Positions 1 through 17,512 of a stretch of 64,000 nucleotides of DNA are shown piece after piece. The stretch spans positions 1,216 to 65,215 of the forward strand of contig DRFJ01000048.1 of NCBI GenBank assembly GCA_011050615.1. Direction: 5' to 3'. Within the stretch, counting starts at the first letter, position 1. Each line of letters begins with the position of its first letter. The notes under the pieces were generated by a model that made no database searches, was not told where the DNA came from, and saw only the letters and a list, made by a program, of their open reading frames with translations. Origin of the DNA: Bacteroidota bacterium (GTDB lineage: Bacteria > Bacteroidota > Bacteroidia > Bacteroidales > VadinHA17). The translations under genes were made by a program, and so were the position numbers.

Positions 1-79
1 CAATATAAAAGCTTACGGCTCCGAGGAGGAACCATATAAACCTGTTGGCGAAAATGATCTTAAGGTTATACCTTATCAT
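1..79 (-). CDS. First 26 codons of a further membrane protein (probable ABC-2-type permease), cut by the window edge
   Basis: Minus-strand ATG at 79-77, 31 nt after the stop of the fusion gene. Translates MIRYNLKIIFANRFIWFLLGAVSFYI..., a short basic N-terminus followed by a hydrophobic helix, the same layout as the N-terminus of the 1140-aa permease starting at 13972. Too short for the ORF track. Confidence 0.35.
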   Translation of the reverse strand, partial: MIRYNLKIIFANRFIWFLLGAVSFYI

Positions 80-110
80 TTTCACCACTATATCGGCCAG
101 GTTAGCTATA

Positions 111-3100
111 TTAGTTATTCTGCTCATTATATATTTCACTTTTACTCTTTCTCAGCAGCCAGAGGTAGGAATCCTCAAGGTTGGGCTTTACCTCCCTTGC
201 CTGCTCATGCGGTTTATTCAGGGATATGCATCTCACCCTTATGCTTCCTTTTTCTGACATATGGTGTACCACCATGTTCTCCGAGGCAAATTTCCTGAAT
301 TCAGCTGCGGGAATGTTAAACTGCCATACCCTGCCCTCGGCTTCTTTAGTCATTTGTCCGGGGTGACCCAGGTATTTGAGATAGCCCTTATCAAGCACAG
401 CCACCTTGTTACATGAGCTCGATATGTCTTCGATTATATGAGTTGAAAATATTACCACCCGTTCCCGGCTCAGTTCCACCAGGAGGTTTCTGAACCTTAT
501 TCTTTCCCTGGGGTCGAGTCCTGCCGTCGGTTCGTCCACCACCAGTATGCGAGGCAAATGCAGCAATATCTGTGCAATACCGATTCTCTGCTTCATTCCA
601 CCTGAGTAGGATCCGATTTTTTCATCCTTGCGTTCATGCATATGCACTGCATTAAGGACATAATGTACCCGTTCATCCCTGGTTTTTTTGTCGGTAATAT
701 TTTTCAATATAGCCTGGTGCTGTAGGAATTCCCAGGCTGTCATGTTTTCATAGGTCCCGAATTCCTGGGGGAGGTAGCCGATAAGTCCCTGCAATTCCTC
801 ACGTTTTTCGGCAACATCAAGGCCATTAATCCATATCTTTCCATAGCTTTGATCGAGTATGCCGCAGATTATTCTCATCAATGTTGTTTTTCCCGCACCA
901 TTTGGCCCCAGTAATCCAAACATCCCATTTCCAATCTCCATTGATACTCCCCCCAGTGCCTTGAATGGTTTACGAACCTTGCCTATGAGGGGAGTGGAAA
1001 GAACCAGTTTGTAATAAGCCTTCCTCAGATTCCTGAATCTTCCTTTCAGCCTGTAGATATCGGTAGCTTTTTCATTGAGAGATCTGCCTGTTGACCATAT
1101 CATAAGGCCCGCATACCATAGAAAACCCACAACAATGACTGCAGCAATATTATTCCATTTGGCCTGGAAGATAATCAGATTGGCAAAGGGGATAAGCCAG
1201 TAGACAGCTATATTCAGTATTTTTTTCAGGAAGGGGGGCAAGGTTTTCTTATCCCTCAGTATCGAATAAAGCGGATCCCAGATAAGGATTATCATAAACC
1301 AGCTGACAAGGCTGAAGAAGAATATCCAGAAGCCTTTCTGTAAATATATATATGTGAAATAAAGTAAGAAGCCCAGCAGTGGTATTTGCCAGATATACTG
1401 TTGTAAATCGCGTATTGATTGAGGTTTTGTATCAAGTCCCAGCCTGCTTCTGATTTTCTTTCCTGCTTTCCATTCCCTGATCATCCTTGGATCACGGTCA
1501 TATATTTTAACAAGGCTCCTGATAACTATATTTACCGGCTCGTCTTCGGCTATAACTGTTTCTCGTGCTTTCCTGAGGCTTGTCCTGATAAACCAGGTCA
1601 CTGCCGGCACAAGTATGATTACAAGTATGGTGCTTATAAGCTGCCACAGGAACTTGTTAATATAAAGGTATATCATTGTCACAAGAAAAACAGAAACGAT
1701 GAGCATTACTGTTTTTATCTTCCAGTTCTGTGACCTTATCCATGATATTGAATTTTCAAGTCCGGTATAAAAAGTAGGAATAAAGACCAGTGTAAGCATC
1801 GTACTGAGGGCAAGTCCGCCAATAACAGTTATTGCAAATGAGGCCCCTATTATGGATGCATATTCTGATTTTCCCATTGCCAGAGGCATTAATGCTACGA
1901 TAGTTGTAATTGCCGTAATAAGGATAGGCCTTACACGGGCCAGACCTGCCGTCATAAGAGCTCTTGACCTCCTGTAGCCTCTTTTCCTGAGTATATTTGA
2001 ATAATCGATAAGAATAATGCCATTATTGACCACCACGCCAAGCAGAATGAGAAAGCCGGTAAGTGTGTTGGCGTTTAGCAATGAATTGCCCGTAAGTATA
2101 AGTGCAATTAGTGAACCAAGTGCTGCCAGTGGTATTGAAAGCATGAGCACTACCGGTGTTGACAATGATTCAAAAACAGCAGCCAGTATCATAAAAATCA
2201 GCAGGAAGGCAATACCTATAAGGTAATAGAAGTCTTTTAACTGGTCCTCTTCATGTATAACTTCAATAGCTATACCCGAAGGAATATTCATTCCTGCAAT
2301 CAGCTGGTCTATTTCTTCCCTTGCACTTTCAAGCAAGGTCCTGGATGAAGTTATCTCATTATTAAACCTGTAGGTAATAGTAATACTCTTTTCCTGGTTT
2401 TCACGGTGGATATTACCCATGCCGTAGGAGAATACTATCGCGGCAATCTCTTCCATTTCAACAATGTTACCACTTGCACCGGATATCTGTAACCGTTTAA
2501 GGTCATCAATATTTTTATACTCTTCTTCCTCTTCCTCCGGCCTGTCGTATTTTATTATTATATCATATTCCTCCTCGCCCTGTTTGAATTTTACACCCGA
2601 TGAATATTCAGGTTGAAATGATGTCAGTTCCTGGGTAATATTATTCAGGCTGATATTATTCCTGCTCATCAGCTCAGTGTTGAAACTGAGCTGTACTTCG
2701 GGTGTATTGTCCTGGATATTAGCACTTACCGATCTGATGGTATTCAGGTCTTCCAGATAATATTCCATATCATCAGCCAGGTTTCTCATCTTGCCGAAGT
2801 CCTGGCCCTTGATTATTATGCTTTCAGACTCGGCACCTATGCCCAGCATACGGGTAAATCCCTCTCCCGGGTTAATCCCGCCGGCTCCACCGCCTCCTCC
2901 CATACCTGAGCCCGAGGAAATCTCACCCATAGTTATTTCAGCACCTCCGAAATTGTGTACCCGTTCGTAAATATCGTTTTTAATTTCAGCAAGTTCACGG
3001 TTACTTTCCTTATCCCAGTCTTCCTTCAGCTGGATTGTAAGGGAGGCCTGGTCTTCCTCAATCTTTGATATAATATCTCCTTTTTCGGGGAGGTTGTCGA

Positions 3101-4847
3101 GGCGTTTTTCAAGCTCGCTTACCAGTACATCTGTTTTTTCGAGGGTTGACCCGGCCGGCATAATAATGCTTACCGGGAAGCTTCCTGTTTCTATCTCTTC
3201 CAGGGTATTAATGCTTAATCCCAGGCTTATCAGCAGGGCGGCAAAAAAGACGACCAGGCTTCCAATAATAGTTGTAGCGGGACGGCGCATGCTGGCCTTC
3301 AGGATGAGAAGATAGGATTGTATCAGGCGGTCATGTATTGAGAGTTTTTTGAAGACCTGTGAATGACTCTTTTTGGACCATGAAAGCAGGTAATGTGTTG
3401 CCATGGGAATCAGCAGAAGGGCAACGGCCAGAGAAACCAGGAGGGTTGACACTATCGAAACTCCAATATTCTTACCTATAATTTTTACCAGGAAATTATC
3501 AGAGAATACAAAGGGAAGGAAGACTGTTATGGTAGTAAGTGTGGCTGCTATCACTGACCTGTACACTTCCTTAGTCCCTTTTTTCACTGCCTCGTCGGTA
3601 CCGGATCCACTTCCTGCGAGCCTGTAAATATTCTCGAGGACAACAACCGAATTGTCAATAAGCATACCTATGGCAAGGGCCATGCCTACCAGGGTAAGGC
3701 TGTTCACGGTTATGCCTGCTGCATAGAAGAAGTTAAAGGCTGTGAATACTGAAACAGGTATGGAAAAAGCAATGATGAAAACCAGTCTGAGATTTCTGAG
3801 GAAGAACCATAATATTACAACAGCAAGGAGTCCGCCCAGAAGGGCAAGGTTAATTATCTGGTCAATGTTCTTTTCCATAACCTCGGCGTTATTGTTCTGG
3901 ACAAGAACCTCCACACCTGAAGAAGCCAGTCGTTTGTTCAACTCATCTATGACTTCGAGGGTGTGATGGGAGAGATCGATGATATTAGCCTGGTTATCAT
4001 ATACCAGATTAATGGTTACCGCATCGAGGCCGTTTACCCGGCTGTACGACTCCTCCTCTTTTACACCGAAGAATATTTCTGCCACATCCTTTAGCAGTAC
4101 AGGTCCCTGGGGATTTACCACTATATTCCGGATATCAGTTACATTATCGAATTCAGCAGATATATTGACAAAAAATCTCTTATCTGATTCGTATACCAGT
4201 CCGGCGAACACCTTATCATTACTGTTTGAAGAAATCAGGGATCTGACCCTGTTCATTGTTATGCCATTTGCCTTGCAGGCTTCCTCATCCAGTCTTATTT
4301 CTATTGAGCTTTCCCTTCCTCCGAAGACTTCCACCCCTGCAATACCATCTATATTCTCAAGTTCAGGTTTGATTTCCCTGTCGGCTATATCCCTTATCCT
4401 GTCGACTCCTCCGCTGCCCCTGACCTGCAGGTCCATAAACCGGCTGTTGAGCTGTTCAAGGTCTATCCTTATTATATTCACAACAAATTCTTCAGGAAGG
4501 CTTGCTGACAACACATTCACTTTTTCCTGTAACTTGAGATAGGAGTATTTAAGATCGGCATTCTGGCTGTAATAGATCATTACCATACCATAGCGGGATG
4601 TAACTGTTGATTCTATCTTCTCCACGTCTTCAAGTGTCCCGACAGCTCCTTCAACGGGTATTATTGCCTGGTTTTCAATATATGAGGGGTCAACATCAAG
4701 GACTGAACTCACCTGGACGATAAGAGTGGGTAATTGTGCATTGGGATAAAGCTCAACCTGTAGTTGCTGATATGATACATAACCAAGAAGCGAGAGCCCT
4801 ATAAAGAGCATGCTTATGAGAGTCTTTCTTTTGATTATAAATTCCAT
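111..4847 (-). CDS. RND (AcrB/HAE1-like) efflux permease fused via six extra TM helices to an ABC-transporter ATP-binding domain
   Basis: Single uninterrupted 1578-codon ORF. aa 1-~1035 is a 12-TM RND permease with two large periplasmic loops. aa ~1043-1088 are two extra hydrophobic helices. aa ~1105-1118 (VNIVIRSLVKIYDR) is an ABC beta-1-like strand. aa ~1152-1252 are four more hydrophobic helices. aa ~1295-1578 is an ABC ATPase: Walker A GPNGAGKTT (nt 882-908), Q-loop YLPQE, signature YSGGMKQR, Walker B ILVVDEPTAGLD, H-loop STHI. Confidence 0.9.
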   Translation of the reverse strand: MEFIIKRKTLISMLFIGLSLLGYVSYQQLQVELYPNAQLPTLIVQVSSVLDVDPSYIENQAIIPVEGAVGTLEDVEKIESTVTSRYGMVMIYYSQNADLKYSYLKLQEKVNVLSASLPEEFVVNIIRIDLEQLNSRFMDLQVRGSGGVDRIRDIADREIKPELENIDGIAGVEVFGGRESSIEIRLDEEACKANGITMNRVRSLISSNSNDKVFAGLVYESDKRFFVNISAEFDNVTDIRNIVVNPQGPVLLKDVAEIFFGVKEEESYSRVNGLDAVTINLVYDNQANIIDLSHHTLEVIDELNKRLASSGVEVLVQNNNAEVMEKNIDQIINLALLGGLLAVVILWFFLRNLRLVFIIAFSIPVSVFTAFNFFYAAGITVNSLTLVGMALAIGMLIDNSVVVLENIYRLAGSGSGTDEAVKKGTKEVYRSVIAATLTTITVFLPFVFSDNFLVKIIGKNIGVSIVSTLLVSLAVALLLIPMATHYLLSWSKKSHSQVFKKLSIHDRLIQSYLLILKASMRRPATTIIGSLVVFFAALLISLGLSINTLEEIETGSFPVSIIMPAGSTLEKTDVLVSELEKRLDNLPEKGDIISKIEEDQASLTIQLKEDWDKESNRELAEIKNDIYERVHNFGGAEITMGEISSGSGMGGGGGAGGINPGEGFTRMLGIGAESESIIIKGQDFGKMRNLADDMEYYLEDLNTIRSVSANIQDNTPEVQLSFNTELMSRNNISLNNITQELTSFQPEYSSGVKFKQGEEEYDIIIKYDRPEEEEEEYKNIDDLKRLQISGASGNIVEMEEIAAIVFSYGMGNIHRENQEKSITITYRFNNEITSSRTLLESAREEIDQLIAGMNIPSGIAIEVIHEEDQLKDFYYLIGIAFLLIFMILAAVFESLSTPVVLMLSIPLAALGSLIALILTGNSLLNANTLTGFLILLGVVVNNGIILIDYSNILRKRGYRRSRALMTAGLARVRPILITAITTIVALMPLAMGKSEYASIIGASFAITVIGGLALSTMLTLVFIPTFYTGLENSISWIRSQNWKIKTVMLIVSVFLVTMIYLYINKFLWQLISTILVIILVPAVTWFIRTSLRKARETVIAEDEPVNIVIRSLVKIYDRDPRMIREWKAGKKIRSRLGLDTKPQSIRDLQQYIWQIPLLGFLLYFTYIYLQKGFWIFFFSLVSWFMIILIWDPLYSILRDKKTLPPFLKKILNIAVYWLIPFANLIIFQAKWNNIAAVIVVGFLWYAGLMIWSTGRSLNEKATDIYRLKGRFRNLRKAYYKLVLSTPLIGKVRKPFKALGGVSMEIGNGMFGLLGPNGAGKTTLMRIICGILDQSYGKIWINGLDVAEKREELQGLIGYLPQEFGTYENMTAWEFLQHQAILKNITDKKTRDERVHYVLNAVHMHERKDEKIGSYSGGMKQRIGIAQILLHLPRILVVDEPTAGLDPRERIRFRNLLVELSRERVVIFSTHIIEDISSSCNKVAVLDKGYLKYLGHPGQMTKEAEGRVWQFNIPAAEFRKFASENMVVHHMSEKGSIRVRCISLNKPHEQAREVKPNLEDSYLWLLRKSKSEIYNEQNN

Positions 4848-4853
4848 AGCAGT

Positions 4854-7800
4854 CTACCTGGCTTGCGTAATAAGGCTTTGTTTCTTTCCTCCCACCATGT
4901 CCTTCAGGGCATCCAGTACCCAGTATACACAGGGAATAACCACAAGGGTCAATATGGTAGACGTTACAAGTCCGCCTATCACTGCCAGGGCCATCGGCGA
5001 CCTGAGGGAGGCACTTTCGCCAAAGCCGAATGTCAGAGGTAAGAGTGCCAGTATTGTGGTAATACTGGTCATTACTATAGGTCTGATCCTTTGACCTCCT
5101 GCTTCTATTATTGCCTGACGTCTGCTTAAGCCCTCTGCCCGGAGCTGGTTGATCCTGTCAATCAGGATAATGGAATCATTTACGGCAATGCCCGCCAGCA
5201 TTATAATTCCAATATATGCCATGATATTGAGCGTTTTGCCAAGGAGGAAGAATATCCATACTGAACCGACTGCGGCAAGGGGAATTGTAAGCAATATAAC
5301 AAAGGGATGGATGAGTGATTCAAACTGTGAAGCCAGCACCATATAAACAAGGATGATTGAAAGGATGAGGGCAAAAGTCAGGTTTTTCATTGATTCTTTA
5401 CGCTTAAGTTCCTCTCCGGTGATAATGGTACGGTAGTCTGCCGGCAGACTAATACCTGCCAGTGTCTTTTCAGTATTCCTGACTATATGGTCAAAAGGAA
5501 CCTCCTTATCGGCCATCGCATATACATAGCTTGTTCTTACCTGGTTATTCCTGCTAATTTCACGTGGTGCACTTACTTTTTTTATATCTGCCAGTTCACT
5601 GAGCGGCACCGATACCGAGCCGGCCTTTATCAAAAGGTTTTGCAGGCTCTTCAGTGGTAATTCTTCCAGTTTAATGGTTATATCCTTCAACTCACCACCC
5701 TGCTCAAAGTCGCCCGCTTTTATCCCGGTGAGGTAAGACTGCACCTGTGAGATTATGCTTTCCACACTCACACTGTAATGACTTGCCTTGTAACGGTCAA
5801 TTACTATATCAACCTCTGGAGTTCCTTCGTCCAGTGAGCTGGTGATATTATAAAGGTTTTCTGATTCTGCGAGCCGGGCCTTTACTTCTTCTGTCAGGTC
5901 CCGGATAATGTCAAGATCCTCACCCCTTATTTCAATTACCAGGGGAGCCTTATCCGTTCCAAGAGTTGTTTGCAGGGATGTTTCTTCCCTTTTAAAACTG
6001 ATTTCAATGTACTTCATGGAAGAAAATTTTTCCTGCAGCAGGAGGATGGCTTCATCGGAACGGGCTGCATATTCATCACTAAGAAACACTCTTATCACAG
6101 AAGTGTTTTCGTCCCTGAACAGGTCTGATTCGCCTGAACCCGTTGTGGTTGTAAAACCGGAATGGCTGTACAGCATCTCGACCCTGTCTCCAAGAAGTTC
6201 CCTTGTGATATTTTCCATCTTCCGCGTTGTTTCTGCTGTACGTTCAAGCATCGTACCTTCCGGCATTTTCATCTCGATGGTAAATTCTGATGATTCTGCC
6301 CCGGGCATAAATTCACTGCCCACTTTTGGAAGAATATAGGCCGTAGCAGCCAGCAATATTAAGGCAAGAATTATTACCGGTCCCTTGCGGGCTATTATTT
6401 TTTCCAGCCAGGAGGAATACCATCTGAAGCTTACTGCCCTTTCTTTCCTTTTTGTTTTTCTGTCTTTAAAGAAGGTTGTCACGAGCAGTGGTATTACCAG
6501 TATGGCAACAAAGAGGGACGACAGGAGGGAAAATGCCACTGTCCACGCCTGGTCTTTGAACAATTCACCGGAAGCACCCTGGAGATATACAATTGGAAGA
6601 AACACAACTATTGTAGTTATTGTTGAGGCTGTTATGGCTCCTCCCACCTGGGCTGTCCCTTCAATGGCAGCTTCCCTGAGGGACATCCCCGATTCATAAT
6701 TACGGAATATATTTTCCAGGACGACTATAGCATTATCAACCAGCATCCCGGCTCCGAGGGCCAGTCCCCCGAGGGTCATTATATTTATTGTAAGGTTATT
6801 GAAATACATGAGGTTGAAGGTTGCGATAATTGAAATGGGTATCGCAATGCTCACAACAAGGGTTGTTCCTATGCGGCGCAGGAAAATAAAGAGTACGAAT
6901 ACAGCCAGTATTATACCAAAAAGGGCAGTTTTTTCCACTTCATTGATAGCCCGGTCAATAAACTGGCCCTGGTCCTGGACAATAATAAATTCATAACCGG
7001 GCAAAGCCTTCTTCAGTATCTCAATGGCTTCTGTCAGTTCCTCCACGGCATTAACGGTATTATAGCGGGGCTCTTTATAAACTGACAAGCCCACACATCG
7101 TTCGCCGTTGACGGTTACAATGTTTTCCGGATCCTTATTTGCAATGTAAATATCTGCAACATCGCTGAGGTAAACCGGTATTCTCTCAGCCGCATCCAGA
7201 GTTTCTGCGGTGCTTCCTGCCTGTGATCCTTCTGCAATTTCCCTGAAGCCTATTATAATGTGTTTAAGATCATCGGCCTCTTCTATAACACTGACTCCTT
7301 TAACAACATACCGGGTTCCCAGGTCGGTAATTGAGCCGCCCGACACATTGCGGTTATAGCTGTTTATCTGCTGGGCAATGTCGGAGGTTGACATATCATA
7401 TGCCTGGAGCAGGTATTCATTTGTTTCTATCACTACTTCACCCTCTTCATGACCGGAAAGCTGTATGTCGGCTATACCTTCCAGCCGGATAAGCTCATTG
7501 CGTATGTAATTTTCCGCTGTCTGTCGCAATTCATCCATATTGCTTATCCTGTCATGTTTCAGGGCTATGATCATTACGGGGGTGGCATTGGGATTGTACT
7601 GAGTTATATTGAACTCATCAAGATCTGCATTCTGGCTGAATGAACTTATATCTTTCTGCAGGTCGAGAAAGGCTTCGTCCATATCCTTGTTCCAGGCATA
7701 TTCAACAATTACCTGGGCAGTACCCACCATCGAAACAGATGAAACATTAATTGCATCCTTCTGTCGCATTGCTATTGATTCAACCTGGTCAACAAATTGT

Positions 7801-7985
7801 TTTTCCATCTCTTCGGGCGGTCGCTCACCGGCCTGCAGTTCAATATAGATTTTCGGATTATTCAGGTCGGGGAACAGGTCTGTTCCCAGCTTGCCAAAGG
7901 AAATTATTCCAAGCAGGATTATGCCCAGTACCAGCATAAGTATAGTTACCGGATTTTCAACTGCAAATCGGACTATTTTTTTCAT
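4854..7985 (-). CDS. RND family efflux transporter permease (AcrB/HAE1-like), stand-alone
   Basis: 1043 aa. N-terminus MKKIVRFAVENPVTILMLVLGIILLG is typical. 12 predicted TM helices with two large periplasmic loops. Conserved TM4 region GGLALGAGMLVDNAIVVLENI. Starts 12 nt after the MFP gene. Confidence 0.92.
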   Translation of the reverse strand: MKKIVRFAVENPVTILMLVLGIILLGIISFGKLGTDLFPDLNNPKIYIELQAGERPPEEMEKQFVDQVESIAMRQKDAINVSSVSMVGTAQVIVEYAWNKDMDEAFLDLQKDISSFSQNADLDEFNITQYNPNATPVMIIALKHDRISNMDELRQTAENYIRNELIRLEGIADIQLSGHEEGEVVIETNEYLLQAYDMSTSDIAQQINSYNRNVSGGSITDLGTRYVVKGVSVIEEADDLKHIIIGFREIAEGSQAGSTAETLDAAERIPVYLSDVADIYIANKDPENIVTVNGERCVGLSVYKEPRYNTVNAVEELTEAIEILKKALPGYEFIIVQDQGQFIDRAINEVEKTALFGIILAVFVLFIFLRRIGTTLVVSIAIPISIIATFNLMYFNNLTINIMTLGGLALGAGMLVDNAIVVLENIFRNYESGMSLREAAIEGTAQVGGAITASTITTIVVFLPIVYLQGASGELFKDQAWTVAFSLLSSLFVAILVIPLLVTTFFKDRKTKRKERAVSFRWYSSWLEKIIARKGPVIILALILLAATAYILPKVGSEFMPGAESSEFTIEMKMPEGTMLERTAETTRKMENITRELLGDRVEMLYSHSGFTTTTGSGESDLFRDENTSVIRVFLSDEYAARSDEAILLLQEKFSSMKYIEISFKREETSLQTTLGTDKAPLVIEIRGEDLDIIRDLTEEVKARLAESENLYNITSSLDEGTPEVDIVIDRYKASHYSVSVESIISQVQSYLTGIKAGDFEQGGELKDITIKLEELPLKSLQNLLIKAGSVSVPLSELADIKKVSAPREISRNNQVRTSYVYAMADKEVPFDHIVRNTEKTLAGISLPADYRTIITGEELKRKESMKNLTFALILSIILVYMVLASQFESLIHPFVILLTIPLAAVGSVWIFFLLGKTLNIMAYIGIIMLAGIAVNDSIILIDRINQLRAEGLSRRQAIIEAGGQRIRPIVMTSITTILALLPLTFGFGESASLRSPMALAVIGGLVTSTILTLVVIPCVYWVLDALKDMVGGKKQSLITQAR

Positions 7986-7997
7986 TTTTCGGGATGC

Positions 7998-9050
7998 TTA
8001 TTTCAGTATTTTTACCTTGGCATTATGGCTGAGCGTTTCAAAGCCGTCAGTAACGACTCTTTCATTGGTGTTCAATCCCCTTATCACTTCAACCTCTTTG
8101 TTGTTTTCTAGTCCGGTGGCGATTATGCGTTCATTGGCAACACCCCTGTTTACAATGAAAACGGTCATTCCTCTTTGCCTTGACAGGATAATATCTTTAG
8201 GTATTACAATAACCGAGTCGGCACGGTGGGTAATTATATCAGCCTTAACAAACATCCCCGGCCTGAGTTTTAGCTCCGGGTTGTTTATTTCAATGCTCCC
8301 CCGGAAAGTTCTTGTCTGTGCATTTATTGCAGGTGACAATTGAGTAATCTTACCCTTCAGGGTGTCTCCGGGAAGGGCATAATTAGTTATTCTGACAGTC
8401 TGCCCGGTGCGGATATCATTTATATATTTTTCAGGGAGGTTAATATCCAGAAGCATGGACTTGTAATCCATAATGCCTGCAACCTTGGTTCCTGACTGTA
8501 TTTCTGAGCCCTGGGTATAATATGGCAATTCGGTAATAAACCCGTCAAAGGGAGATGTGATTTTCATCTTTTCGATTTGAAGGCGTGCATTTTCGACTGT
8601 AATCTGGGCGTTGATATAATCATAGCCAGCCTGCTTCAATTCATTAAGTGTAACACCCCCCTTTTCATATAATGACTCCTGTTTTTCAAGATTACTCTTT
8701 GCGAGTTCAAGATTAAGCTCATAGAGTTCCAGCTTAATATTATTTTCATATTCTTCATCTTCGAGGCGGACAATTAATGAACCTTTTCTAAGCCTGTCAC
8801 CAAGCTGCCATTGCCTTCCTGTTTCCGCGTTATTTTCCAGGTAGTACCTGGCGGCTATCTCAGCCACAAGTTCAACATCCACCACAGGATAGACAGTGCC
8901 TGTAGTGCTTACAAATTCTTCAATTGATTTGAGTTTTATGTCTTCTACTGAAACAGGAATTTCAACGTCAGCCTCCAGACCGGCATCCTGGTTATTGCAT
9001 CCTGCGAATAGGAAGGAGAAGAATAAAAGATATATCAGTCTTATTTTCAT
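7998..9050 (-). CDS. Efflux RND periplasmic adaptor subunit (membrane fusion protein, HlyD/AcrA-like) lipoprotein
   Basis: 350 aa. Signal peptide with lipobox FLFAGC, a coiled-coil hairpin segment (NIKLELYELNLELAKSNLEKQESLYEKGGVTLNELKQA), and barrel-sandwich/beta-barrel C-terminal part. Lies between OMF and RND genes. Confidence 0.85.
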   Translation of the reverse strand: MKIRLIYLLFFSFLFAGCNNQDAGLEADVEIPVSVEDIKLKSIEEFVSTTGTVYPVVDVELVAEIAARYYLENNAETGRQWQLGDRLRKGSLIVRLEDEEYENNIKLELYELNLELAKSNLEKQESLYEKGGVTLNELKQAGYDYINAQITVENARLQIEKMKITSPFDGFITELPYYTQGSEIQSGTKVAGIMDYKSMLLDINLPEKYINDIRTGQTVRITNYALPGDTLKGKITQLSPAINAQTRTFRGSIEINNPELKLRPGMFVKADIITHRADSVIVIPKDIILSRQRGMTVFIVNRGVANERIIATGLENNKEVEVIRGLNTNERVVTDGFETLSHNAKVKILK

Positions 9051-9071: not shown

Positions 9072-10538
9072 TTATTGTTGTTCAAGTATCTTTATAGGTG
9101 TTACTGCTTCCTTCTTTTCAAAATCATAAAGGGTTTGTATTTTGAGATTAAGTAATTCCAGTTTATATGATATTATTGCATTGGTAAGAGACAGTTGTTT
9201 TTCAGATAGCTGGTTCTGGTAGATATTAAGATCCATACCTGTAAGGTCGCCGTTCTCATATTTTTCAAGGTTAAGCTCATAGGTCAGTTGTGCATTTTTG
9301 ACATTCTGCCTTGCTATTTCAATCTGGTTTTTAAGATTGGTCAGATTCCTGTATACTTTTCTTATGTTAATTATTATATTGTTTTCTTCCTCTTCATAGC
9401 CTATCATCTGTGATTCGATTGAAGCTTCGGCGGCTTTTATCCTTGATTTACGCTCACCCCAGTCCCACAGGGGTATGGAAAAAGATACGGATACCTGCTG
9501 GTTGTCGGTTGGACTTGCATATATATCGGTAAAATTTTCATTATCACCGAACAAGCCGACCGAGAGGTTAAGGTCGCCCCGAAATTCATTGAGAGCCTTG
9601 GTTTGTATAAGTGAAAATTCTGTATTCTCAATATCTATTTCCCTTTGCCTGAGTTCCATCCTGTTTGCCAGGCCATGATTAATGGCAAAGGTCACATCAA
9701 CATCAATTGTATCGACAGAAATATCGGGGATAACTATTATATCGTCATACAGGCTCATTCCGATCAGCAATTTGAAATCATCCTTGGCATCTTCGAGGCT
9801 TACCCTCTGGTTGTCAACATCAGAACTTGAGGTCGCGAGGTTGAGCTCAGCCTGGTAAAGTTCTTCCCTGGCTGATAATCCGGCATCAACTTTATTCCTG
9901 ATTATATCATAGCTTTTCGTCATATTCTGATAAGCCTCTTCTGCTATAATAAGGCTTTGCTGCTGCTGGTATACGAGATAGAAATACTGGGCTACCTGTC
10001 TTTCCAGTGAAAGCCTCTGTATGGCATAATTGAGCTGTGAATTTTCAAGAGCCAGTTCCAGTTCGCTTATCTGCAGCTTTGTCCTGTTATATGTAAACAG
10101 GGGCTGGTTTATGTTGAGGGACAGGTTATTACTAAATCCTTTGGTGCGCGAGTCATTATACTCGCTGTAGGAGTTTTGCCACGAAAACCTGTTGTTCAAT
10201 GATATTGTGGCATCAGTGGCAACTATGGGTTGAGATATTCTGAAGGTGCCGAAACTGCGTGTTGTTTCACGGGTATTCCATCTTGAAACAAGATCGTTGA
10301 ATTCCCTGTTGTGGGTATACTCAAAAGGGTTTACCGAAAGAGAGAACTGGGATTTGAGAGCAGCCCTCTGGGCATTGAGGTTTTCCCTGCTTCTGACAAG
10401 ATTAAGCCTTGTTCTCTTTATTGAAGGGCTGTTTTCTTCGGCTATATCCAGTGCCATTTCCAGGGTGAGGCCCTGCTGCGCTGTTACATTAAGAGCAAAA
10501 TTAAGGACTACCGGTAATAATAATATTAACTTCTTCAT
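9072..10538 (-). CDS. TolC-family outer membrane efflux protein
   Basis: 488 aa. Signal peptide MKKLILLLPVVLNFALNVTAQ, then LTLEMALDIAEENSPSIK typical of the OMF N-terminus. Two internal repeats rich in coiled-coil-forming Q/L/N/E. Confidence 0.85.
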   Translation of the reverse strand: MKKLILLLPVVLNFALNVTAQQGLTLEMALDIAEENSPSIKRTRLNLVRSRENLNAQRAALKSQFSLSVNPFEYTHNREFNDLVSRWNTRETTRSFGTFRISQPIVATDATISLNNRFSWQNSYSEYNDSRTKGFSNNLSLNINQPLFTYNRTKLQISELELALENSQLNYAIQRLSLERQVAQYFYLVYQQQQSLIIAEEAYQNMTKSYDIIRNKVDAGLSAREELYQAELNLATSSSDVDNQRVSLEDAKDDFKLLIGMSLYDDIIVIPDISVDTIDVDVTFAINHGLANRMELRQREIDIENTEFSLIQTKALNEFRGDLNLSVGLFGDNENFTDIYASPTDNQQVSVSFSIPLWDWGERKSRIKAAEASIESQMIGYEEEENNIIINIRKVYRNLTNLKNQIEIARQNVKNAQLTYELNLEKYENGDLTGMDLNIYQNQLSEKQLSLTNAIISYKLELLNLKIQTLYDFEKKEAVTPIKILEQQ

Positions 10539-10549
10539 ATAGTATTATA

Positions 10550-13500
10550 TTATTTAAGCGTATTCTGTCTTACCCATTTTACTGCATCTCCGGTAACTGT
10601 TCTTCCTTCTGACTGGTTTGTCATTATCACCCTTGCGGTGTCAGGTGAGAGATAATATGAACCCAGGTGATTCCATCCGTTTTCCGCGTTTTCCCAGTTT
10701 ACTGTCATTTCCTCGCTCCCATCATCATGCTCAACGCTGAAATGCAGGTCCTGCATTACATTCCTGCCTTCCCCGCCCCGCCCCATCATCATTCTTTGTC
10801 CGCCCCGCTTGCCTATAAAAGTATACACATCGTAGTATCCGGGCTCCGGGATACTGGCTGTCCAGCTTATATATCTTTCCCCGCTGCCGGCGCGTGTATA
10901 TACTGCTGACTTGACATATTTACCATAATAAATGCTCTCAACCGTCTTTTGCCAGTATTCCGGTGCCCACCATATGAACATTTCACGGTAATCATTACCA
11001 TTATCACGCCTGATATTCAGCCATTCTTTCAGTTTACCTGATGATGTTTCCTGGTAGATTCTGAATCCCGGATCTTCATTGTCAACAATTATTTCATTTT
11101 CCTCCTCCATGAGAGGTATTTTGTCAAGTATTATTTCCCCTTCGGTATTGTCATCTGTTTTGCCCTGCATAAGATCCATCAGTGGAAACTGCAGCTCACC
11201 GGGATTATTAATTGAAAAGAGTGTATTTACGAACATACCCCGTGGCTGGGCATCAAGTATCACACTTATTCTTTTGGCCTGGTTTGCTTCAAGCTTTACA
11301 ATTTTTTCCACATCATTGGTCTGCATACCCCTGCCTTCCATACCTATTGACATACTACCCCTTCCTGAGGCGCTTATGGTAATTGATACATTGCCCCCCA
11401 TGCCTCGTCCTCCACCTTGTCCCGGCCTACCGGTACGGAAGCCGACATTGAAAATGCCGGGTGTCTTTTCAGGATTGGATGCAGTAAAACTTACTTTGTA
11501 CCTGGTGCGGTTTCCTACAACTATTTCGTTAACTATAATATCAGTAAAAAGAAAACCCGGCTGCCCTTTACCATTATACCATTGATCAAGGTAGCTCTTG
11601 AGGTCGAAGCCGAACCTTTCGCCGAGATCGCTGTTAAATTCATCTATACTGACATTCCTGAATTTTTTCTTTTCGAGGTATGATGAAAACCAGTTGTTAA
11701 ACTCTTCCATCCCGGCCTCCGCACGAAGGAGGTTAAACAGGTAATCACCTTTTAATGTGAGTATAAGTCTTGTAGTGTCTGTCGACGGGTTAAGGGCGAG
11801 TATTTCCTTCAGGCTGTGATCCTTGAGGATGGTATTTGCCCTGTCATTCTCACTGAGTCCTCCCAGAAGCATCCTCTGGAATCCTCTCTGAGGCGTTTCC
11901 ACTTTCTGAAGGTGTGTTTCAAAAACAGCATTGATAACAGGATATTCATCGGAATAGAAATTATTCTTGTAAAAATAGAAACTGGGTCCCAGCAAATATC
12001 TTCCCGGGGTCATAGAAGTGTTTCCCCTGTTAAATCGGAAACCGGAGCTGGTGATGAAGGTATTTCTGACAAAATTATTAAAAGCCCTGACCTGGAGTTC
12101 CCTGTCGGTTATTACCTCGTTATTCCTTTCCATCCTTCTTTTTTGCCTCTTTATTGTACCGTGGAAGCCGGCATCATTTATTGTAGCCAGCTTTTCTGGC
12201 AAGAGTATAAGTGAAGGCTGAACTTCAGCCCTTGTCTGGGTATTTTTTCTTTCTATCGAGTGAAAATAAACCGGCACTTCCACGAGACTCAGGCTGTTAA
12301 AGGGATATTCAGTGCTAAAATTTGTTTCGAGCTCTGTCATAATCCCTGATATGAGGTTACCGAGGGTGTCACTCAGTTCATTCAGATCCTTCCTGAAGTA
12401 GTCGTGTCCCCTGTAGTAATGTGCTATAAAGCCGGTTGAATCAACTGTAATGGTATCGCTGATATAATTACCTTCTATTAGACTGATTCCGGTCAGAGGC
12501 ACCTCATTCTTGAAATACCAGTAATCATTGTCAGATGATCTTACTCCCTGTGATACAGCAACAAGTTTATTGTTTCTGGCAACCTTTAATGTATAATATG
12601 TAAAGTCAATGAGGATCCTTGCCGGATTGCCCGGATAAAAGTTGAGCCCTGCTACGGGGTACCAGTGAGTTTCAGGTGTCAGCAAGAGAAAATTGTCTTT
12701 TTGAATAGCCTGTCTTTTTTCAACCCTGACGGGCCCAATGGTGAACGGATCCTTCTTTATATCTTCCGTATGCCAGGGATAGCAGTAAGCCTCTTCTACC
12801 AGGCCCTCATAGGTGAAACTAATACTTAAAGATGAATCGGGTTCAAGGGCTTTCCCGAGATCAACAATAATTATATGGCCATCGCCTGTAAATGAAGCAG
12901 GCGAACCATTTACGTCAATCTTTCTGACCGCCAGTCCGGGGTTTAATGAAAAGGGAGATTCACTGAGCGGCCTTCCCGTGTTATTTACACAATTTAATGT
13001 TGCCAGGGCAGTGATAGAACGCTTTGAATAATCAATTTCAATATCTGCCTCCGTAACTTTAAGGAAATCGCTGCTTTCGTATTTCCTGTTGGTTTCTGTT
13101 ATGGAAGTTTTAAGGTTTTGGGTCCTGTAATAATCATCCAGGAAATAATATGCTGTGAAAGCGGTAATGGCTAAAAATATAATCAGGGAGACAGAGCTTA
13201 TGATCCTGTGTGTTCTTGATTGTGGCAGCCTTTTAAATATAAGTATTGTTGCGAAAATAAAAACAAGACCCAGGGCTGTATACATAATTCTCTGGGCAAG
13301 AATCAAATCTAAATTACTGAATCCCGTTATATTGCTTTTAAAGACAGGAAATCCAAAGAGCATATAGTCGAAAAATGAATTCATCCTGTTATAGAGATAG
13401 AACATATCAAGTGCCGCAAGGCCCAGCAGCAGGAGGAAGGTGATTGCCTGGTTGCGGATGATGGACATCAATATATAGGCAAAGCCAAGGCTGAAGATCA

Positions 13501-13972
13501 ATGTCGGGATAGTGATTATAAAAATATATTCAATATAAGCAGCTGCATCTATACTTGCCTGTTTAGATATTATGTTAATTATGAGGCAGATGATAAGGAT
13601 TAATATATTTACGCCCAGGAAAAGCCTCAGTATGCCAAGTGATTTTCCGAATATATACTCCATGTTTGACATCGGCCTTGTATAAAGAACCTCATTTGTA
13701 TCCAGCTTTTTATCTCTTTTAAGGAAGTCTGATGCCAGAAATATTACTATAAGAGCCTGGGCAATATTAATTATGTAAAGGTTAAACAGTGGCAGGGATG
13801 AAGGGATGGCAAGGAAGGACCAGTCTTCATCTCCCACGGGGCTGAAAATCCCGATATTCATTATTGAAAGGATAAACAGTGCTCCAAATGAGAACAACCT
13901 GAAAAGCCAGCTGCGGCGTAATGTTTTAGCCTCATAGTGGGCAACAGTTCTGATATTGTGAATGGAAATCAT
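10550..13972 (-). CDS. ABC-2-type permease (about 7 TM) fused to a large periplasmic M1-aminopeptidase-like domain without HExxH and a golvesin-C-terminal-like domain
   Basis: 1140 aa. aa 1-~285 hold about 7 hydrophobic helices. The ectodomain carries M1-like landmarks (THWYPVAG...FTYYTLKVARNNKLVAVSQG; ...SYLDQWYNGKGQPGF). No HE dipeptide occurs anywhere, so no HExxH zinc site. The C-terminus ...ENGWNHLGSYYLSPDTARVIMTNQSEGRTVTGDAVKWV resembles golvesin/Xly C-terminal-like carbohydrate-binding domains. Start codon lies 1 nt after the ATPase stop. Confidence 0.75.
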   Translation of the reverse strand: MISIHNIRTVAHYEAKTLRRSWLFRLFSFGALFILSIMNIGIFSPVGDEDWSFLAIPSSLPLFNLYIINIAQALIVIFLASDFLKRDKKLDTNEVLYTRPMSNMEYIFGKSLGILRLFLGVNILILIICLIINIISKQASIDAAAYIEYIFIITIPTLIFSLGFAYILMSIIRNQAITFLLLLGLAALDMFYLYNRMNSFFDYMLFGFPVFKSNITGFSNLDLILAQRIMYTALGLVFIFATILIFKRLPQSRTHRIISSVSLIIFLAITAFTAYYFLDDYYRTQNLKTSITETNRKYESSDFLKVTEADIEIDYSKRSITALATLNCVNNTGRPLSESPFSLNPGLAVRKIDVNGSPASFTGDGHIIIVDLGKALEPDSSLSISFTYEGLVEEAYCYPWHTEDIKKDPFTIGPVRVEKRQAIQKDNFLLLTPETHWYPVAGLNFYPGNPARILIDFTYYTLKVARNNKLVAVSQGVRSSDNDYWYFKNEVPLTGISLIEGNYISDTITVDSTGFIAHYYRGHDYFRKDLNELSDTLGNLISGIMTELETNFSTEYPFNSLSLVEVPVYFHSIERKNTQTRAEVQPSLILLPEKLATINDAGFHGTIKRQKRRMERNNEVITDRELQVRAFNNFVRNTFITSSGFRFNRGNTSMTPGRYLLGPSFYFYKNNFYSDEYPVINAVFETHLQKVETPQRGFQRMLLGGLSENDRANTILKDHSLKEILALNPSTDTTRLILTLKGDYLFNLLRAEAGMEEFNNWFSSYLEKKKFRNVSIDEFNSDLGERFGFDLKSYLDQWYNGKGQPGFLFTDIIVNEIVVGNRTRYKVSFTASNPEKTPGIFNVGFRTGRPGQGGGRGMGGNVSITISASGRGSMSIGMEGRGMQTNDVEKIVKLEANQAKRISVILDAQPRGMFVNTLFSINNPGELQFPLMDLMQGKTDDNTEGEIILDKIPLMEEENEIIVDNEDPGFRIYQETSSGKLKEWLNIRRDNGNDYREMFIWWAPEYWQKTVESIYYGKYVKSAVYTRAGSGERYISWTASIPEPGYYDVYTFIGKRGGQRMMMGRGGEGRNVMQDLHFSVEHDDGSEEMTVNWENAENGWNHLGSYYLSPDTARVIMTNQSEGRTVTGDAVKWVRQNTLK

Positions 13973-13973: not shown

Positions 13974-14879
13974 TTATTTAACCTGTACGTTAATGTTTGT
14001 TCCGTTTATCTTATGCTCCATGTAATAAACATAGGCATGTTCCAGGTTGGGCTCAATTTCCTGGCTGTCAAATCCTGACACGTCATCGGCCACTACCTGG
14101 GCATCCCAGCCAATATCACTGGGTATGGATGAGATTATATGGTAAGTGTCTTTAATCCTGTCATATTCTTCCTGGGTCAGTCTCAGGTTAAATACATGAC
14201 CCTCAGCCTGTTTTACCAGTTCGTCAGGTGATCCTGAAAAAACCATTTCACCCATGTTCAAAAGCGCCATTCCCTGGCATGTAGAGGAAATATCTCCTAC
14301 TATATGCGTGGAAAGGATAATTGTAACATCATGTTGACTCAGGTCTGACAGTATATTCCTGAACCGTATTCTTTCATCAGGGTCAAGGCCCGTTGTTGGC
14401 TCATCCACAACTATAATTCTTGGGTCACCTATCAGTGCCTGGGCAATGCCAAGTCTTCTTTTCATCCCTCCTGATAATTTATTTGCCTTCCTGTCCCGTG
14501 CTTCAAGCAGGCCTACCTTGTCAAGAAGCTCATCAACTATGGACAGCCTTTGCTTCCTGTTTTTTATACCAGCCAGCGAGCCTGCATAATCAAGGAATTC
14601 CCATGTTTTTAAACGTGTAAAGAAACGAAAATCCTGGGGGAGGTATCCCAGGTAAGAACGCAGTTTTTTCCTGTTCTTCTGTATGTTTTCTCCATCGACA
14701 AGCACCTCCCCGGAGCTTGGTTTCATAAGGGCGACAAGTACCTTCATGAGGCTGGATTTACCTGCGCCGTTCGGACCCAGCAGACCGAACATCCCTTCTG
14801 CAATTGTCAGATTGATGTTTTTAACAGCGTGATTACCGTTTTTATATATTACATCAAGACCTCTTATCTCGATCTTCAT
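13974..14879 (-). CDS. ABC transporter ATP-binding protein (ABC-2 subfamily type)
   Basis: 301 aa. Walker A GPNGAGKSS, Q-loop YLPQD, signature LSGGMKRR, Walker B IIVVDEPTTGLD, H-loop STHI. C-terminal accessory domain ends in EPNLEHAY. Visibly paralogous to the C-terminal domain of the 1578-aa fusion. Confidence 0.92.
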   Translation of the reverse strand: MKIEIRGLDVIYKNGNHAVKNINLTIAEGMFGLLGPNGAGKSSLMKVLVALMKPSSGEVLVDGENIQKNRKKLRSYLGYLPQDFRFFTRLKTWEFLDYAGSLAGIKNRKQRLSIVDELLDKVGLLEARDRKANKLSGGMKRRLGIAQALIGDPRIIVVDEPTTGLDPDERIRFRNILSDLSQHDVTIILSTHIVGDISSTCQGMALLNMGEMVFSGSPDELVKQAEGHVFNLRLTQEEYDRIKDTYHIISSIPSDIGWDAQVVADDVSGFDSQEIEPNLEHAYVYYMEHKINGTNINVQVK

Positions 14880-17397: not shown

Positions 17398-17512
17398 TCA
17401 GAATCGTTCCAAACGAATTTGTTTGATATAAACCAGGTTGGAAAGGTTTTTTATAGTACGTTCGAAAAAAAATTCATTTCTTTGCATGCAATATAAATAA
17501 TTAGAGACTTAA

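What the first reader, a model, noticed from the sequence alone, without database searches (positions are those of the whole stretch)
1..980. The fused ATPase sits where a stand-alone ATPase would, directly before a second permease gene
**A repeated module.** The operon begins with an ATPase gene followed 1 nt later by its permease (13974-14879, then 10550-13972). At the other end the same order recurs: the NBD (nt ~114-980) is followed 31 nt later by an ORF starting MIRYNLKIIFANRFIWFLLGAVSFYI, which runs off the window.

**Evidence that the two NBDs are paralogues.** They share these blocks:
- GMFGLLGPNGAGK
- GYLPQ(D/E)F
- WEFL
- SGGMK(R/Q)R
- VVDEPT(T/A)GLDP(D/R)ERIRFRN
- STHI(V/I)(G/E)DISS(T/S)C
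- AEG(H/R)V
- PNLE

I did not compute percent identity.

**Interpretation (inference).** An ancestral ATPase-permease pair was duplicated, and the ATPase copy was captured onto the C-terminus of the upstream RND gene. The fused NBD may therefore still power the downstream permease.
Basis: inference. Interest (0 to 1): 0.6.

Follow-up and report, generated by a model that had tools for sequence, protein, structure and literature searches.

The report
Small permease partner of RND-fused ATPase
The ATP-burning domain fused to the end of an efflux-pump protein is followed by a small, unnamed membrane protein that looks like that domain's own transporter partner, so the odd fusion probably still runs a second ATP-driven transporter inside one large export operon.

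Summary
The fused RND-ABC gene (window 111-4847, minus strand) is followed by a real gene that runs 593 nt past the window edge. It has no M1-like ectodomain.

- **What it is.** Databases call the family "hypothetical protein". Its model has the ABC-2 (type V exporter) membrane fold (best match NosY, Z 16.4).
- **Coupling to the fusion.** It sits directly after the fused gene in 35 of 36 loci. In 201 genomes of the order, it, the linker and the big permease occur in the same 25.
- **Predicted contact.** A complex model docks its conserved coupling helix into the Q-loop groove of the fused ATPase (score 0.62, best control 0.00). Similar complexes are solved, so likeness may explain the pass.
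- **The two ATPases.** They are true paralogues: 39% identity over 270 aa, and best paralogues in the genome. Trees neither show nor reject that they are sisters.
- **The two permeases.** They share only the fold, so the "duplicated pair, then capture" story is unproven.

I found no paper on this system. This scan has noted the same operon on other DNA at least 15 times.

The parts
1..127 (-). 5' end of the small permease gene (Perm2). The gene continues 593 nt beyond the window edge to L001:623 and encodes 239 aa (223 aa from the second ATG).
   Evidence: fold
111..980 (-). NBD2, the ABC ATPase core plus a family-specific C-terminal domain (residues about 1290-1578 of the fused protein). Walker A, Q-loop, signature, Walker B, D-loop and H-loop are all present.
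981..1742 (-). Linker (residues 1036-1289). It holds two TM helices, then the conserved first strand of the NBD (..NLVKIYDR.., invariant K and Y), then a four-TM insertion before the Walker A region.
   Evidence: conserved at 30-42% identity in orthologues
1743..4847 (-). RND2 core, a complete AcrB-type RND permease (residues 1-1035).
4854..7985 (-). RND1, the second, unfused RND permease.
7998..9050 (-). Membrane-fusion (periplasmic adaptor) protein.
9072..10538 (-). TolC-like outer-membrane factor.
10550..13972 (-). PermM1, an ABC-2 membrane domain (residues 1-250) followed by a large ectodomain with a weak M1-peptidase match and a Golvesin_C domain.
13974..14879 (-). NBD1, the stand-alone ABC ATPase and first gene of the operon.

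Best explanation
The gene after the fused RND-ABC gene encodes the membrane domain that the fused ATPase (NBD2) drives. Together they form one NBD-plus-ABC-2-membrane-domain unit of an ABC exporter-type machine.

- **Shown by sequence.** NBD2 keeps all catalytic motifs.
- **Shown by model.** Perm2 is a six-TM protein with an N-terminal amphipathic connecting helix and a short coupling helix between TM2 and TM3 that carries the family's most conserved motif.
- **Predicted, not measured.** These two elements sit in the groove around the Q-loop of NBD2, as in solved type V ABC exporters.
- **Shown by comparison.** The two genes are translationally close or overlapping, and are inherited together as the last two genes of a fixed seven-gene operon: NBD1, big M1-like permease, OMF, adaptor, RND1, RND2-NBD2, Perm2.
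- **Inferred.** ATP hydrolysis needs two NBDs, so NBD2 must pair with another NBD2 or with NBD1. I lean slightly towards an NBD1-NBD2 / PermM1-Perm2 heterodimer tethered to the RND pump.
For: 1. **Completeness and length.** Perm2 is complete at 223/239 aa, with no ectodomain.
2. **Fold.** The AF2 model has pLDDT 85.6 and pTM 0.83. All listed Foldseek matches are type V/ABC-2 membrane domains such as PmtCD, NosY and ABCG (E about 1e-2, TM 0.55-0.59). VIA-align gives Z 16.4, rmsd 3.1 A over 212 residues to NosY.
3. **Pfam.** 11 of 37 family members match ABC2_membrane_3 (best E 3.8e-6) and 5 match ABC2_membrane_2.
4. **Co-occurrence.** In 201 genomes of the order, the same 25 hold Perm2 (27 matches at E<=0.001: 25 at E<=1.5e-50, plus 2 weak ones in other genomes), the linker (25) and PermM1 (30 matches at E<=1e-5: 25 at E<=2.3e-113, plus 5 weak ones in other genomes). 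In 401 genomes of the phylum, 4 have Perm2 including the window's own. The 3 others carry the full operon.
5. **Adjacency.** Perm2 lies directly downstream on the same strand in 35 of 36 loci (plus the window). In 26 of the 33 I could measure, the longest ORF starts within 30 nt of the fused gene's stop or overlaps it.
6. **Complex model.** Score 0.62, best of 3 controls 0.00. That mark was reached by 116 of 157 solved complexes and 2 of 215 mismatched pairs. The runs agree in at least 91% of contacts and the partner's pLDDT is at least 78. My own alignments were used, so these counts hold only roughly.
7. **Interface.** On NBD2 it covers the helix after Walker A, the Q-loop and the helical subdomain (piece residues 290-297, 315-352, 391-392). 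On Perm2 it covers residues 8-27, 86-102 and 235-239. That set includes the invariant E90, F93, G94, P96, Y98, R235 and E236.
8. **Selective constraint.** NBD2 is the best-conserved part of the operon among those I compared: 64-76% identity, against 38-54% for Perm2 and 58-66% for NBD1.
9. **Retention when unlinked.** In the complete genome G115 the operon is scattered, but the fused gene, Perm2 and NBD1-PermM1 are all kept.
Against: - The window's own Perm2 has no Pfam or NCBIfam match.
- Foldseek E-values are weak (about 1e-2).
- NBD-membrane-domain complexes of this class are solved, so the complex score may reflect likeness only. It cannot say that this copy binds, nor that NBD2 rather than NBD1 is the partner.
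- The six extra TM helices of the linker were not placed confidently against Perm2; only residue 55 of the piece is in the interface. Their role is open.
- RND pumps are trimers and ABC engines are dimers, so the stoichiometry is unexplained.
- No natural NBD-Perm2 fusion was found.
- G115 shows that linkage is not obligatory.
- There is no expression or biochemical data.
Confidence: 0.75

Rival explanations
1. There are two independent homodimeric ABC transporters: (NBD1)2(PermM1)2 and (RND2-NBD2)2(Perm2)2. The second uses two fused protomers, for example two RND2 subunits of a mixed RND trimer. Perm2 is still NBD2's partner, but there is no NBD1-NBD2 contact.
For: - Most bacterial ABC-2 systems with one ATPase gene and one permease gene are homodimers (established knowledge; NosFY is an example among the matches).
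- Both NBDs keep full catalytic motifs, with no degenerate site of the kind seen in many heterodimers.
- Each ATPase gene directly precedes its own permease gene.
- In G115, NBD1-PermM1 stays together as a pair, apart from the other genes.
Against: - The two modules were never seen apart in the 25 genomes of the order sample or the 3 of the phylum sample.
- The residue after the D-loop (GLDP-x) is acidic in 11 of 11 NBD1 and in 32 of 42 stand-alone relatives. It is R in 9 of 9 operon NBD2 and R/K in 16 of 21 other long fused forms. That would suit a mixed pair, but it is an inference; the contact was not modelled.
- Two fused NBDs per RND trimer would leave one protomer without an NBD or one NBD unpaired.
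Confidence: 0.35
2. NBD2 no longer drives a transporter. It acts as an ATP-dependent regulator or lid of the RND pump. Perm2 is only a membrane scaffold or assembly factor that kept an ABC-2-like shape.
For: - The NBD is hard-wired to the RND permease through six extra TM helices, and its first strand is split off by a membrane insertion. That layout is unusual for a working transporter.
- Perm2 has drifted out of reach of Pfam models in the window's copy.
Against: - All ATPase motifs, and the coupling-helix motif of Perm2, are invariant or nearly so.
- The predicted interface is the canonical energy-coupling one.
- NBD2 is under the strongest constraint among the operon parts I compared.
Confidence: 0.1
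3. Perm2 is an unrelated neighbour gene, and its position after the fused gene is an accident of gene order.
For: - In G115 it lies 275 kb from the fused gene.
- In 7 of 33 loci the gap is 37-732 nt.
Against: - Perm2 is adjacent to the fused gene in 35 of 36 loci, across different families, two other orders or classes of the phylum, and one Calditrichaceae MAG.
- Co-occurrence is perfect in 25 of 25 genomes.
- No strong Perm2 match was found in a genome without the fusion. The only other matches were two weak ones, E 4.3e-4 and 7.2e-4.
Confidence: 0.02

Closest known systems
NosFY (with NosD), the ABC-2-type complex of nitrous oxide reductase maturation (PDB 7o0y, 7znq)
   Same: NosY is the best structural match of both Perm2 (Z 16.4, rmsd 3.1 A over 212 residues) and the membrane domain of PermM1 (Z 18.7, rmsd 3.3 A over 227 residues). 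Both are small six-TM ABC-2 domains served by a separate ATPase. In NosDFY the membrane domain works with a large periplasmic partner, much as PermM1 carries a large ectodomain.
   Different: NosF is a free ATPase and NosFY is a homodimer of pairs. Here one ATPase is fused to an RND permease, with six extra TM helices and a split first strand. Sequence identity is only 13-16%. There is no link to N2O reductase genes.
DrrAB / GldA-type ABC-2 exporters (NCBIfam TIGR01188 drrA, TIGR03522 GldA)
   Same: These are the best NCBIfam matches of both NBDs (E 1e-50 to 2e-56). Both are below the curated cut-offs, so neither is a member. The gene order, ATPase then ABC-2 permease, is the same.
   Different: Both NBDs carry a different C-terminal domain (..AEGxVW..PNLEDxY..) and score far below the family cut-offs (172-192 bits against 312). 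In this system the ATPase is not a free protein.
MacAB-TolC and other tripartite ABC efflux pumps
   Same: An ABC engine is encoded together with an adaptor protein and a TolC-like channel. Energy use in the cytoplasm may act through a periplasmic domain.
   Different: MacB has a four-TM type VII fold with its own fused NBD. Perm2 and PermM1 have the six-TM ABC-2 fold. Whether the ABC part here touches the adaptor at all is unknown.
MdtABC-TolC (two RND paralogues in one operon, MdtB2C heterotrimer)
   Same: Two different RND permease genes lie side by side with one adaptor and one outer-membrane factor. MdtB is among the top solved sequence matches of RND2.
   Different: No ABC domain is fused to MdtB or MdtC, and no ABC-2 permease genes are in that operon (recalled knowledge, not tested here).
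YbhFSR of E. coli (two NBDs fused in one chain, two different ABC-2 membrane subunits)
   Same: It is an ABC-2 system built from two unlike membrane subunits, a precedent for a PermM1-Perm2 mixed pair (abstract of PMC13739795 in the listing).
   Different: There the two NBDs are fused to each other, not to an RND pump. I saw only the abstract in the search listing.

Membership tests
ABC-2 / type V ABC exporter membrane domain (Perm2) | Match to a Pfam ABC2_membrane model | tested here: inconclusive
   The window's protein has no match. 11 of 37 family members match ABC2_membrane_3 (best E 3.8e-6), 5 match ABC2_membrane_2, and 1 each matches _4 and _5. One database homologue carries a precomputed PF12698.
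ABC-2 / type V ABC exporter membrane domain (Perm2) | Six-TM fold with an N-terminal connecting helix and a coupling helix between TM2 and TM3 | tested here: met
   The AF2 model has pLDDT 85.6, with helices at 2-27, 30-50, 57-78, 83-93, 98-128, 134-159, 162-178 and 203-238. All listed Foldseek matches are of this class. The best VIA match is NosY at Z 16.4. This rests on a model, not a structure.
ABC-2 / type V ABC exporter membrane domain (Perm2) | Docks on an ABC ATPase through the Q-loop groove | tested here: met
   This is a prediction only: score 0.62 against best control 0.00; 116 of 157 solved and 2 of 215 mismatched pairs reach the mark; at least 91% contact agreement; partner pLDDT at least 78. 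Like complexes are solved, so the pass may come from likeness.
ABC-2 / type V ABC exporter membrane domain (Perm2) | Transports a substrate using ATP | not testable with these tools
   This needs biochemistry.
ABC transporter ATPase (NBD2) | Walker A, Q-loop, LSGGQ-type signature, Walker B with catalytic Glu, D-loop and H-loop | tested here: met
   GPNGAGKT, LPQ, SGGMKQR, VVDEPT, GLDP and STH are all invariant or nearly so in 25 aligned sequences. Pfam ABC_tran matches at E 2.4e-28.
NBD1 and NBD2 as close paralogues | Each is the other's best match in the genome | tested here: met
   NBD1 against all ORFs of the genome gives NBD2 at E 3.5e-65 and the next hit at E 1.8e-34. NBD2 against the genome gives NBD1 at E 1.5e-63 and the next at 5.8e-28.
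NBD1 and NBD2 as close paralogues | Sister clades to the exclusion of other ATPases (a duplication inside this system) | tested here: inconclusive
   Both free trees place stand-alone 290-aa ATPases closer to NBD1. AU tests do not reject the sister tree: p 0.523, with the held tree 3.18 lnL better on the quick 100-row tree, and p 0.178, with the held tree 26.86 lnL worse on the careful 72-row tree.
Perm2 as a paralogue of the big permease (PermM1) | Detectable sequence homology of the membrane domains | tested here: not met
   hhalign gives E 0.082 and probability 0.69 over 206 co-linear columns. The best Pfam families differ: ABC2_membrane_3 against ABC2_membrane_2. They share only the fold.
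Perm2 as a paralogue of the big permease (PermM1) | M1-like ectodomain | tested here: not met
   Perm2 is 239 aa and its longest loop is about 24 residues.
RND permease (N-terminal 1035 residues of the fused protein) | Full-length AcrB/AcrD/AcrF domain with 12 TM helices | tested here: met
   Pfam ACR_tran covers residues 2-1028 at E 1.6e-165. NCBIfam RND_permease_2 matches at E 9e-142, below its cut-off. Solved RND pumps match at E 1e-63.

The most novel reading that the evidence does not exclude
The seven genes build one machine. A mixed ABC-2 engine (NBD1 paired with NBD2, PermM1 paired with Perm2) is covalently tethered through NBD2 to an RND1/RND2 trimer that holds a single fused protomer. 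All parts share one adaptor and one outer-membrane channel. ATP hydrolysis would then move the large M1-like ectodomain or gate the proton-driven pump. In that case two energy sources act on one export path, and the charge swap after the D-loop (acidic in NBD1, basic in NBD2) enforces the mixed pairing.
Probability: 0.25. Interest if true: 0.85.

Novelty: new variant of a known kind. Interest (0 to 1): 0.6.

Why it matters
RND pumps (proton-driven) and ABC transporters (ATP-driven) are normally treated as separate classes. Here one protein joins them, and the open question has been what the fused ATPase is for.

This work gives a concrete and testable answer. The ATPase keeps a dedicated, strictly co-inherited ABC-2 membrane partner, currently labelled "hypothetical protein". 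So the fusion tethers a working ABC unit to an RND pump rather than carrying a relic domain.

The work also names a protein family that public annotation leaves unnamed. It narrows the design of experiments to three questions: which chains to co-express, which residues to mutate, and whether the engine is a mixed or a like pair. The operon occurs in cultured strains (Draconibacterium orientale DSM 25947, D. mangrovi GM2-18), so those experiments are feasible.

Tried and rejected
1. **A triple fusion RND-NBD-Perm2 in G072.** One search reported a 1764-aa open frame. It is an artefact: the frame runs through a 100-N scaffold gap.
2. **An ATP-only RND pump.** RND2 has D-N-S in TM4 and N-N in TM10 where AcrB-type pumps have D-D and K-N. 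The same pattern is seen in RND1 or in most of the 73 non-operon, unfused RND pumps examined. It is therefore a subfamily trait and no sign that RND2 lost proton coupling. My first regex count was faulty and I discarded it.
3. **Natural fusions of Perm2 to an ATPase.** The "longer" search found 1 protein among 2419 candidates. It is a 474-aa product on a 1961-nt contig, with only the last 120 or so residues of Perm2 behind unrelated sequence, and is probably a chimera.
4. **Relatives with RND and NBD as separate genes.**
   - The "shorter" search lists mostly cut products. Every NCBI name listed says "partial", and many still carry ACR_tran.
   - P0017 is a fragment, since its cluster holds a 1567-aa member.
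   - P0054 (539 aa, on a 14.9-kb contig) could be a true split form, but it nests inside the fused clade. I could not see its context.
None of the 80 loci was from that family.
6. **Terminator after Perm2.** One hairpin lies at L001:443-424. The scan found 2 terminator-like sites against 1.3 expected from shuffles, so this is not evidence.
7. **Literature.** Three full-text searches found nothing on an RND-ABC fusion or on this permease. I saw search listings and abstracts only; subscription journals are not covered.
Full report
**The observation.**
On the minus strand the window holds a 1578-aa ORF at 111-4847. Pfam finds a full RND domain (ACR_tran, residues 2-1028, E 1.6e-165) and an ABC ATPase domain (ABC_tran, 1301-1442, E 2.4e-28). 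The stop codon is at 111-113.

At the other end of the operon, NBD1 (13974-14879) is followed 1 nt later by a 1140-aa permease (10550-13972). That permease has a Golvesin_C domain and a weak M1-peptidase match. BLASTP gives 39% identity over 270 residues, E 6e-68, and the match runs into the C-terminal extension beyond the ABC core.

**Completing the downstream gene.**
The window is G000:C13:1216-65215, so 1215 nt lie to its left. The ORF ends at L001:623. It is followed by a rimP-like gene.

In 19 orthologues the position of that Met is often L, S, V, I or T, and a conserved 12-20 residue N-terminal stretch precedes it. Most database homologues are called at 238-239 aa. The likely start is therefore the ATG at window 125-127, which gives 239 aa and overlaps the last 17 nt of the fused gene. 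The protein has no ectodomain, so it is not a second copy of the big M1-like permease.

**What the small protein is.**
The window's copy matches no Pfam or NCBIfam model. Every source name shown for its homologues is "hypothetical protein". There are 5448 proteins at E <= 0.001, and the named ones among the 120 listed are Bacteroidales or Bacteroidota MAGs.

Three lines place it in the ABC-2 class:
- Scanned one by one, 11 of 37 family members match ABC2_membrane_3 (best E 3.8e-6) and 5 match ABC2_membrane_2.
- An AlphaFold2 model built from a 37-row alignment has mean pLDDT 85.6 and pTM 0.83. It shows an N-terminal helix, six long helices and a short helix at 83-93.
- Foldseek E-values are weak (about 1e-2, TM 0.55-0.59), but every listed match is a type V/ABC-2 membrane domain such as PmtCD, NosY, ABCG2, ABCG5/8 or ABCG25. 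VIA-align gives Z 16.4, rmsd 3.1 A over 212 residues to NosY.

It is not met: the protein has the fold and the usual length of such permeases.

**Coupling to the fused gene.**
In a sample of 201 genomes of the order, including the window's own:
- Perm2 matches 27 genomes. 25 are at E <= 1.5e-50 and 2 are weak, at 4.3e-4 and 7.2e-4.
- The 255-residue linker of the fused protein matches 25.
- The big permease matches 30. 25 are at E <= 2.3e-113 and 5 are weak.

The 25 strong genomes are the same in all three searches. In 401 genomes of the phylum, 4 have Perm2, counting the window's own. The other 3 carry the whole operon.

I read the surroundings of Perm2 in 35 other loci:
- 19 of 20 loci from the order have the fused gene directly upstream on the same strand.
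- 5 of 5 further loci do too.
- 10 of 10 named records do too. These include Draconibacterium orientale DSM 25947, D. mangrovi GM2-18, MAGs labelled Proteiniphilum, Parabacteroides, Rikenellaceae and Bacteroidaceae, and one Calditrichaceae MAG.

With the window that makes 35 of 36. Going by the longest ORF, 26 of the 33 measurable gaps are 30 nt or less, or are overlaps. The other 7 gaps are 37-732 nt.

The exception is the complete genome G115. There the fused gene (2.07 Mb), Perm2 (2.35 Mb) and NBD1-PermM1 (2.65 Mb) lie apart, yet all are kept.

Of the parts I compared, NBD2 is the most conserved part of the operon:

| Part | Identity to the window's copy |
|---|---|
| NBD2 | 64-76% |
| NBD1 | 58-66% |
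| Perm2 | 38-54% |
| Linker | 30-42% |

**Predicted contact.**
I folded the linker plus NBD2 (543 residues, 25-row alignment) together with Perm2 (239 residues, 37 rows).
- The score was 0.62 and the best of 3 controls was 0.00.
- That mark was reached by 116 of 157 solved complexes and 2 of 215 mismatched pairs.
- The runs agree in at least 91% of contacts, and the partner's pLDDT is at least 78.
- My own alignments were used, so the calibration counts hold only roughly.

On NBD2 the interface covers the helix after Walker A, the Q-loop and the helical subdomain (piece residues 290-297, 315-352, 391-392). On Perm2 it covers the N-terminal helix (8-27), the short helix and its flanks (86-102) and the C-terminus (235-239). 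Seven of the 23 invariant Perm2 residues lie in it: E90, F93, G94, P96, Y98, R235 and E236. This is the standard energy-coupling interface of type V ABC exporters.

Such complexes are solved, so the pass may show likeness rather than binding. It also cannot tell NBD2 from NBD1 as the partner. Only one linker residue is in the confident interface, so the role of the six extra helices stays open.

**Are the two ATPases sisters?**
Within the genome each is the other's best match. NBD1 finds NBD2 at E 3.5e-65 and the next ORF at 1.8e-34. NBD2 finds NBD1 at 1.5e-63 and the next at 5.8e-28.

A search of 1.84 billion cluster representatives with linker plus NBD2 found two kinds of relatives. One kind is many 1550-1600-aa proteins matched over the whole query. 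The other is many stand-alone ATPases of about 290 aa, 40-46% identical to NBD2 and 36-47% identical to NBD1.

*Quick tree* (100 rows, LG+G4):
- All RND-fused NBDs form one clade (SH-aLRT 99). This includes a roughly 1430-aa family without the membrane insertion.
- The operon NBD1s form another clade (99).
- Stand-alone ATPases lie between the two, on branches with 85-91 support.

*Careful tree* (72 rows). I dropped 28 rows from the 100-row set: P0039, P0053, the four mid-length products, the two own-genome outgroups, 5 NBD1 rows, 3 operon NBD2 rows and 12 long fused rows. In this tree:
- NBD1 (100/99) nests among stand-alone ATPases (86/94).
- The stand-alone group together with NBD1 forms one group (80/93).

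*AU tests* of "NBD1 plus all fused NBDs form one clade" do not reject it:
- p 0.523, with the held tree 3.18 lnL better than the quick free tree.
- p 0.178, with the held tree 26.86 lnL worse than the careful free tree.

The two ATPases therefore belong to one subfamily with a shared C-terminal domain. The data neither show nor exclude that they are each other's closest relatives. The outgroup and the sampling were drawn from the best matches to NBD2, which limits this test.

**Are the two permeases paralogues?**
A profile-profile comparison of Perm2 with the first 300 residues of PermM1 is not significant. It gives E 0.082 and probability 0.69, although 206 columns align co-linearly, including the motif after TM2.

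PermM1's membrane domain matches ABC2_membrane_2 in 13 of 15 orthologues (best E 3.1e-8). Its model (pLDDT 80.1) also matches NosY best, at Z 18.7 and rmsd 3.3 A over 227 residues. The module "ATPase of this subfamily plus ABC-2 domain" is thus repeated at the level of fold and gene order. Common descent of the two permeases by a duplication inside the operon is not shown.

**How it most likely works.**
- *Shown.* The ATPase is intact. Its neighbour has the ABC-2 fold. The two are co-inherited and tightly spaced.
- *Predicted.* The contact is the canonical coupling contact.
- *Inferred.* ATP hydrolysis needs an NBD dimer. I see two options: two fused protomers, or NBD2 with NBD1.

Three points favour the mixed pair:
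- The two modules never occur apart in the samples.
- A single fused protomer in a mixed RND trimer would then suffice.
- There is a charge swap at the residue after the D-loop (GLDP-x). It is E or D in 11 of 11 NBD1 and E in 32 of 42 stand-alone relatives. It is R in 9 of 9 operon NBD2 and R or K in 16 of 21 other long fused forms.

I did not model that contact, so the last point is only a lead.

Two points argue against the mixed pair. Both NBDs keep full catalytic motifs. Each ATPase gene sits before its own permease, as in homodimeric systems.

**Compared with what is known.**
The closest solved relatives by fold are NosY/NosFY, PmtCD and the ABCG and ABCA membrane domains. By sequence the ATPases are nearest to DrrA and GldA models but score well below their cut-offs.

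The operon frame of two RND genes, one adaptor and one TolC-like protein recalls MdtABC-TolC. MdtB is among the best solved matches of RND2.

Three full-text searches found no paper on an RND-ABC fusion or on this permease (listings and abstracts only).

This scan has met the same operon on other DNA many times. 15 findings in at least 14 genomes hold the search words, and look-alikes of Perm2 occur in 27 windows. Those notes describe the fusion, the seven-gene cluster and the split NBD. They agree with what I saw here and were not used as evidence.

**Verdict.**
The evolutionary half is unproven: one pair duplicated, with one ATPase captured by the RND gene. The new piece is the assignment of an unnamed protein family as the membrane partner of the RND-fused ATPase.

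Noticed in passing
protein P0039 (290 aa; no locus): A stand-alone ATPase that is a clear chimera. Residues 1-160 are 62-90% identical to the NBD1 clade. Residues 160-290 are 43-84% identical to the NBD2 clade. The crossover lies at the shared VVDEPTxGLDPxERIRFRN block. It is either a natural deletion between the two direct-repeat ATPase genes or an assembly chimera. It is a singleton on a 1913-nt contig.
   Followed up: partly
proteins P0062, P0067, P0070, P0096, P0110, P0132: A second family of RND-ABC fusions of about 1390-1450 aa. It has no four-TM insertion and only a 40-50 residue soluble insert between strand 1 and the Walker A region. In the quick tree these NBDs fall inside the one well-supported clade (SH-aLRT 99) of all RND-fused NBDs; that clade is not recovered in the careful tree, where the fused rows are unresolved at the base. 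Their gene context was not obtained.
   Followed up: partly
L032, L042, L043 (complete genome G115): The operon is scattered over three places 275-300 kb apart. The fused gene stands alone without RND1, adaptor or OMF next to it. The ORFs just downstream of Perm2 (17345-18707, minus strand) were not identified.
   Followed up: partly
L015:11880-15977 (G159): The fused gene is only 1365 aa. About 210 residues of the C-terminal half of the RND core are missing, while the linker, NBD2 and Perm2 are intact. This is either a real deletion or an assembly error.
   Followed up: no
L068 (Rikenellaceae MAG) 1023-4362 and 4382-5896: In this copy of the operon the big permease is split into three ORFs and the outer-membrane factor into two. 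This is either gene decay or sequencing errors.
   Followed up: no
window 111-980 and 13974-14879 (residue after GLDP): There is a charge swap next to the D-loop. The residue is acidic in NBD1 and in most stand-alone relatives, and basic in NBD2 and most long fused forms.
   Followed up: partly
L034, L035, L036 (G105, G131): Extra paralogues of the big M1-like permease (24-31% identity) stand outside the operon, without an adjacent NBD1-like gene.
   Followed up: no
window 15070-16332 (+): An HD-domain protein gene (HD plus HD_assoc_2) is divergently oriented, 190 nt upstream of the operon's first gene.
   Followed up: no
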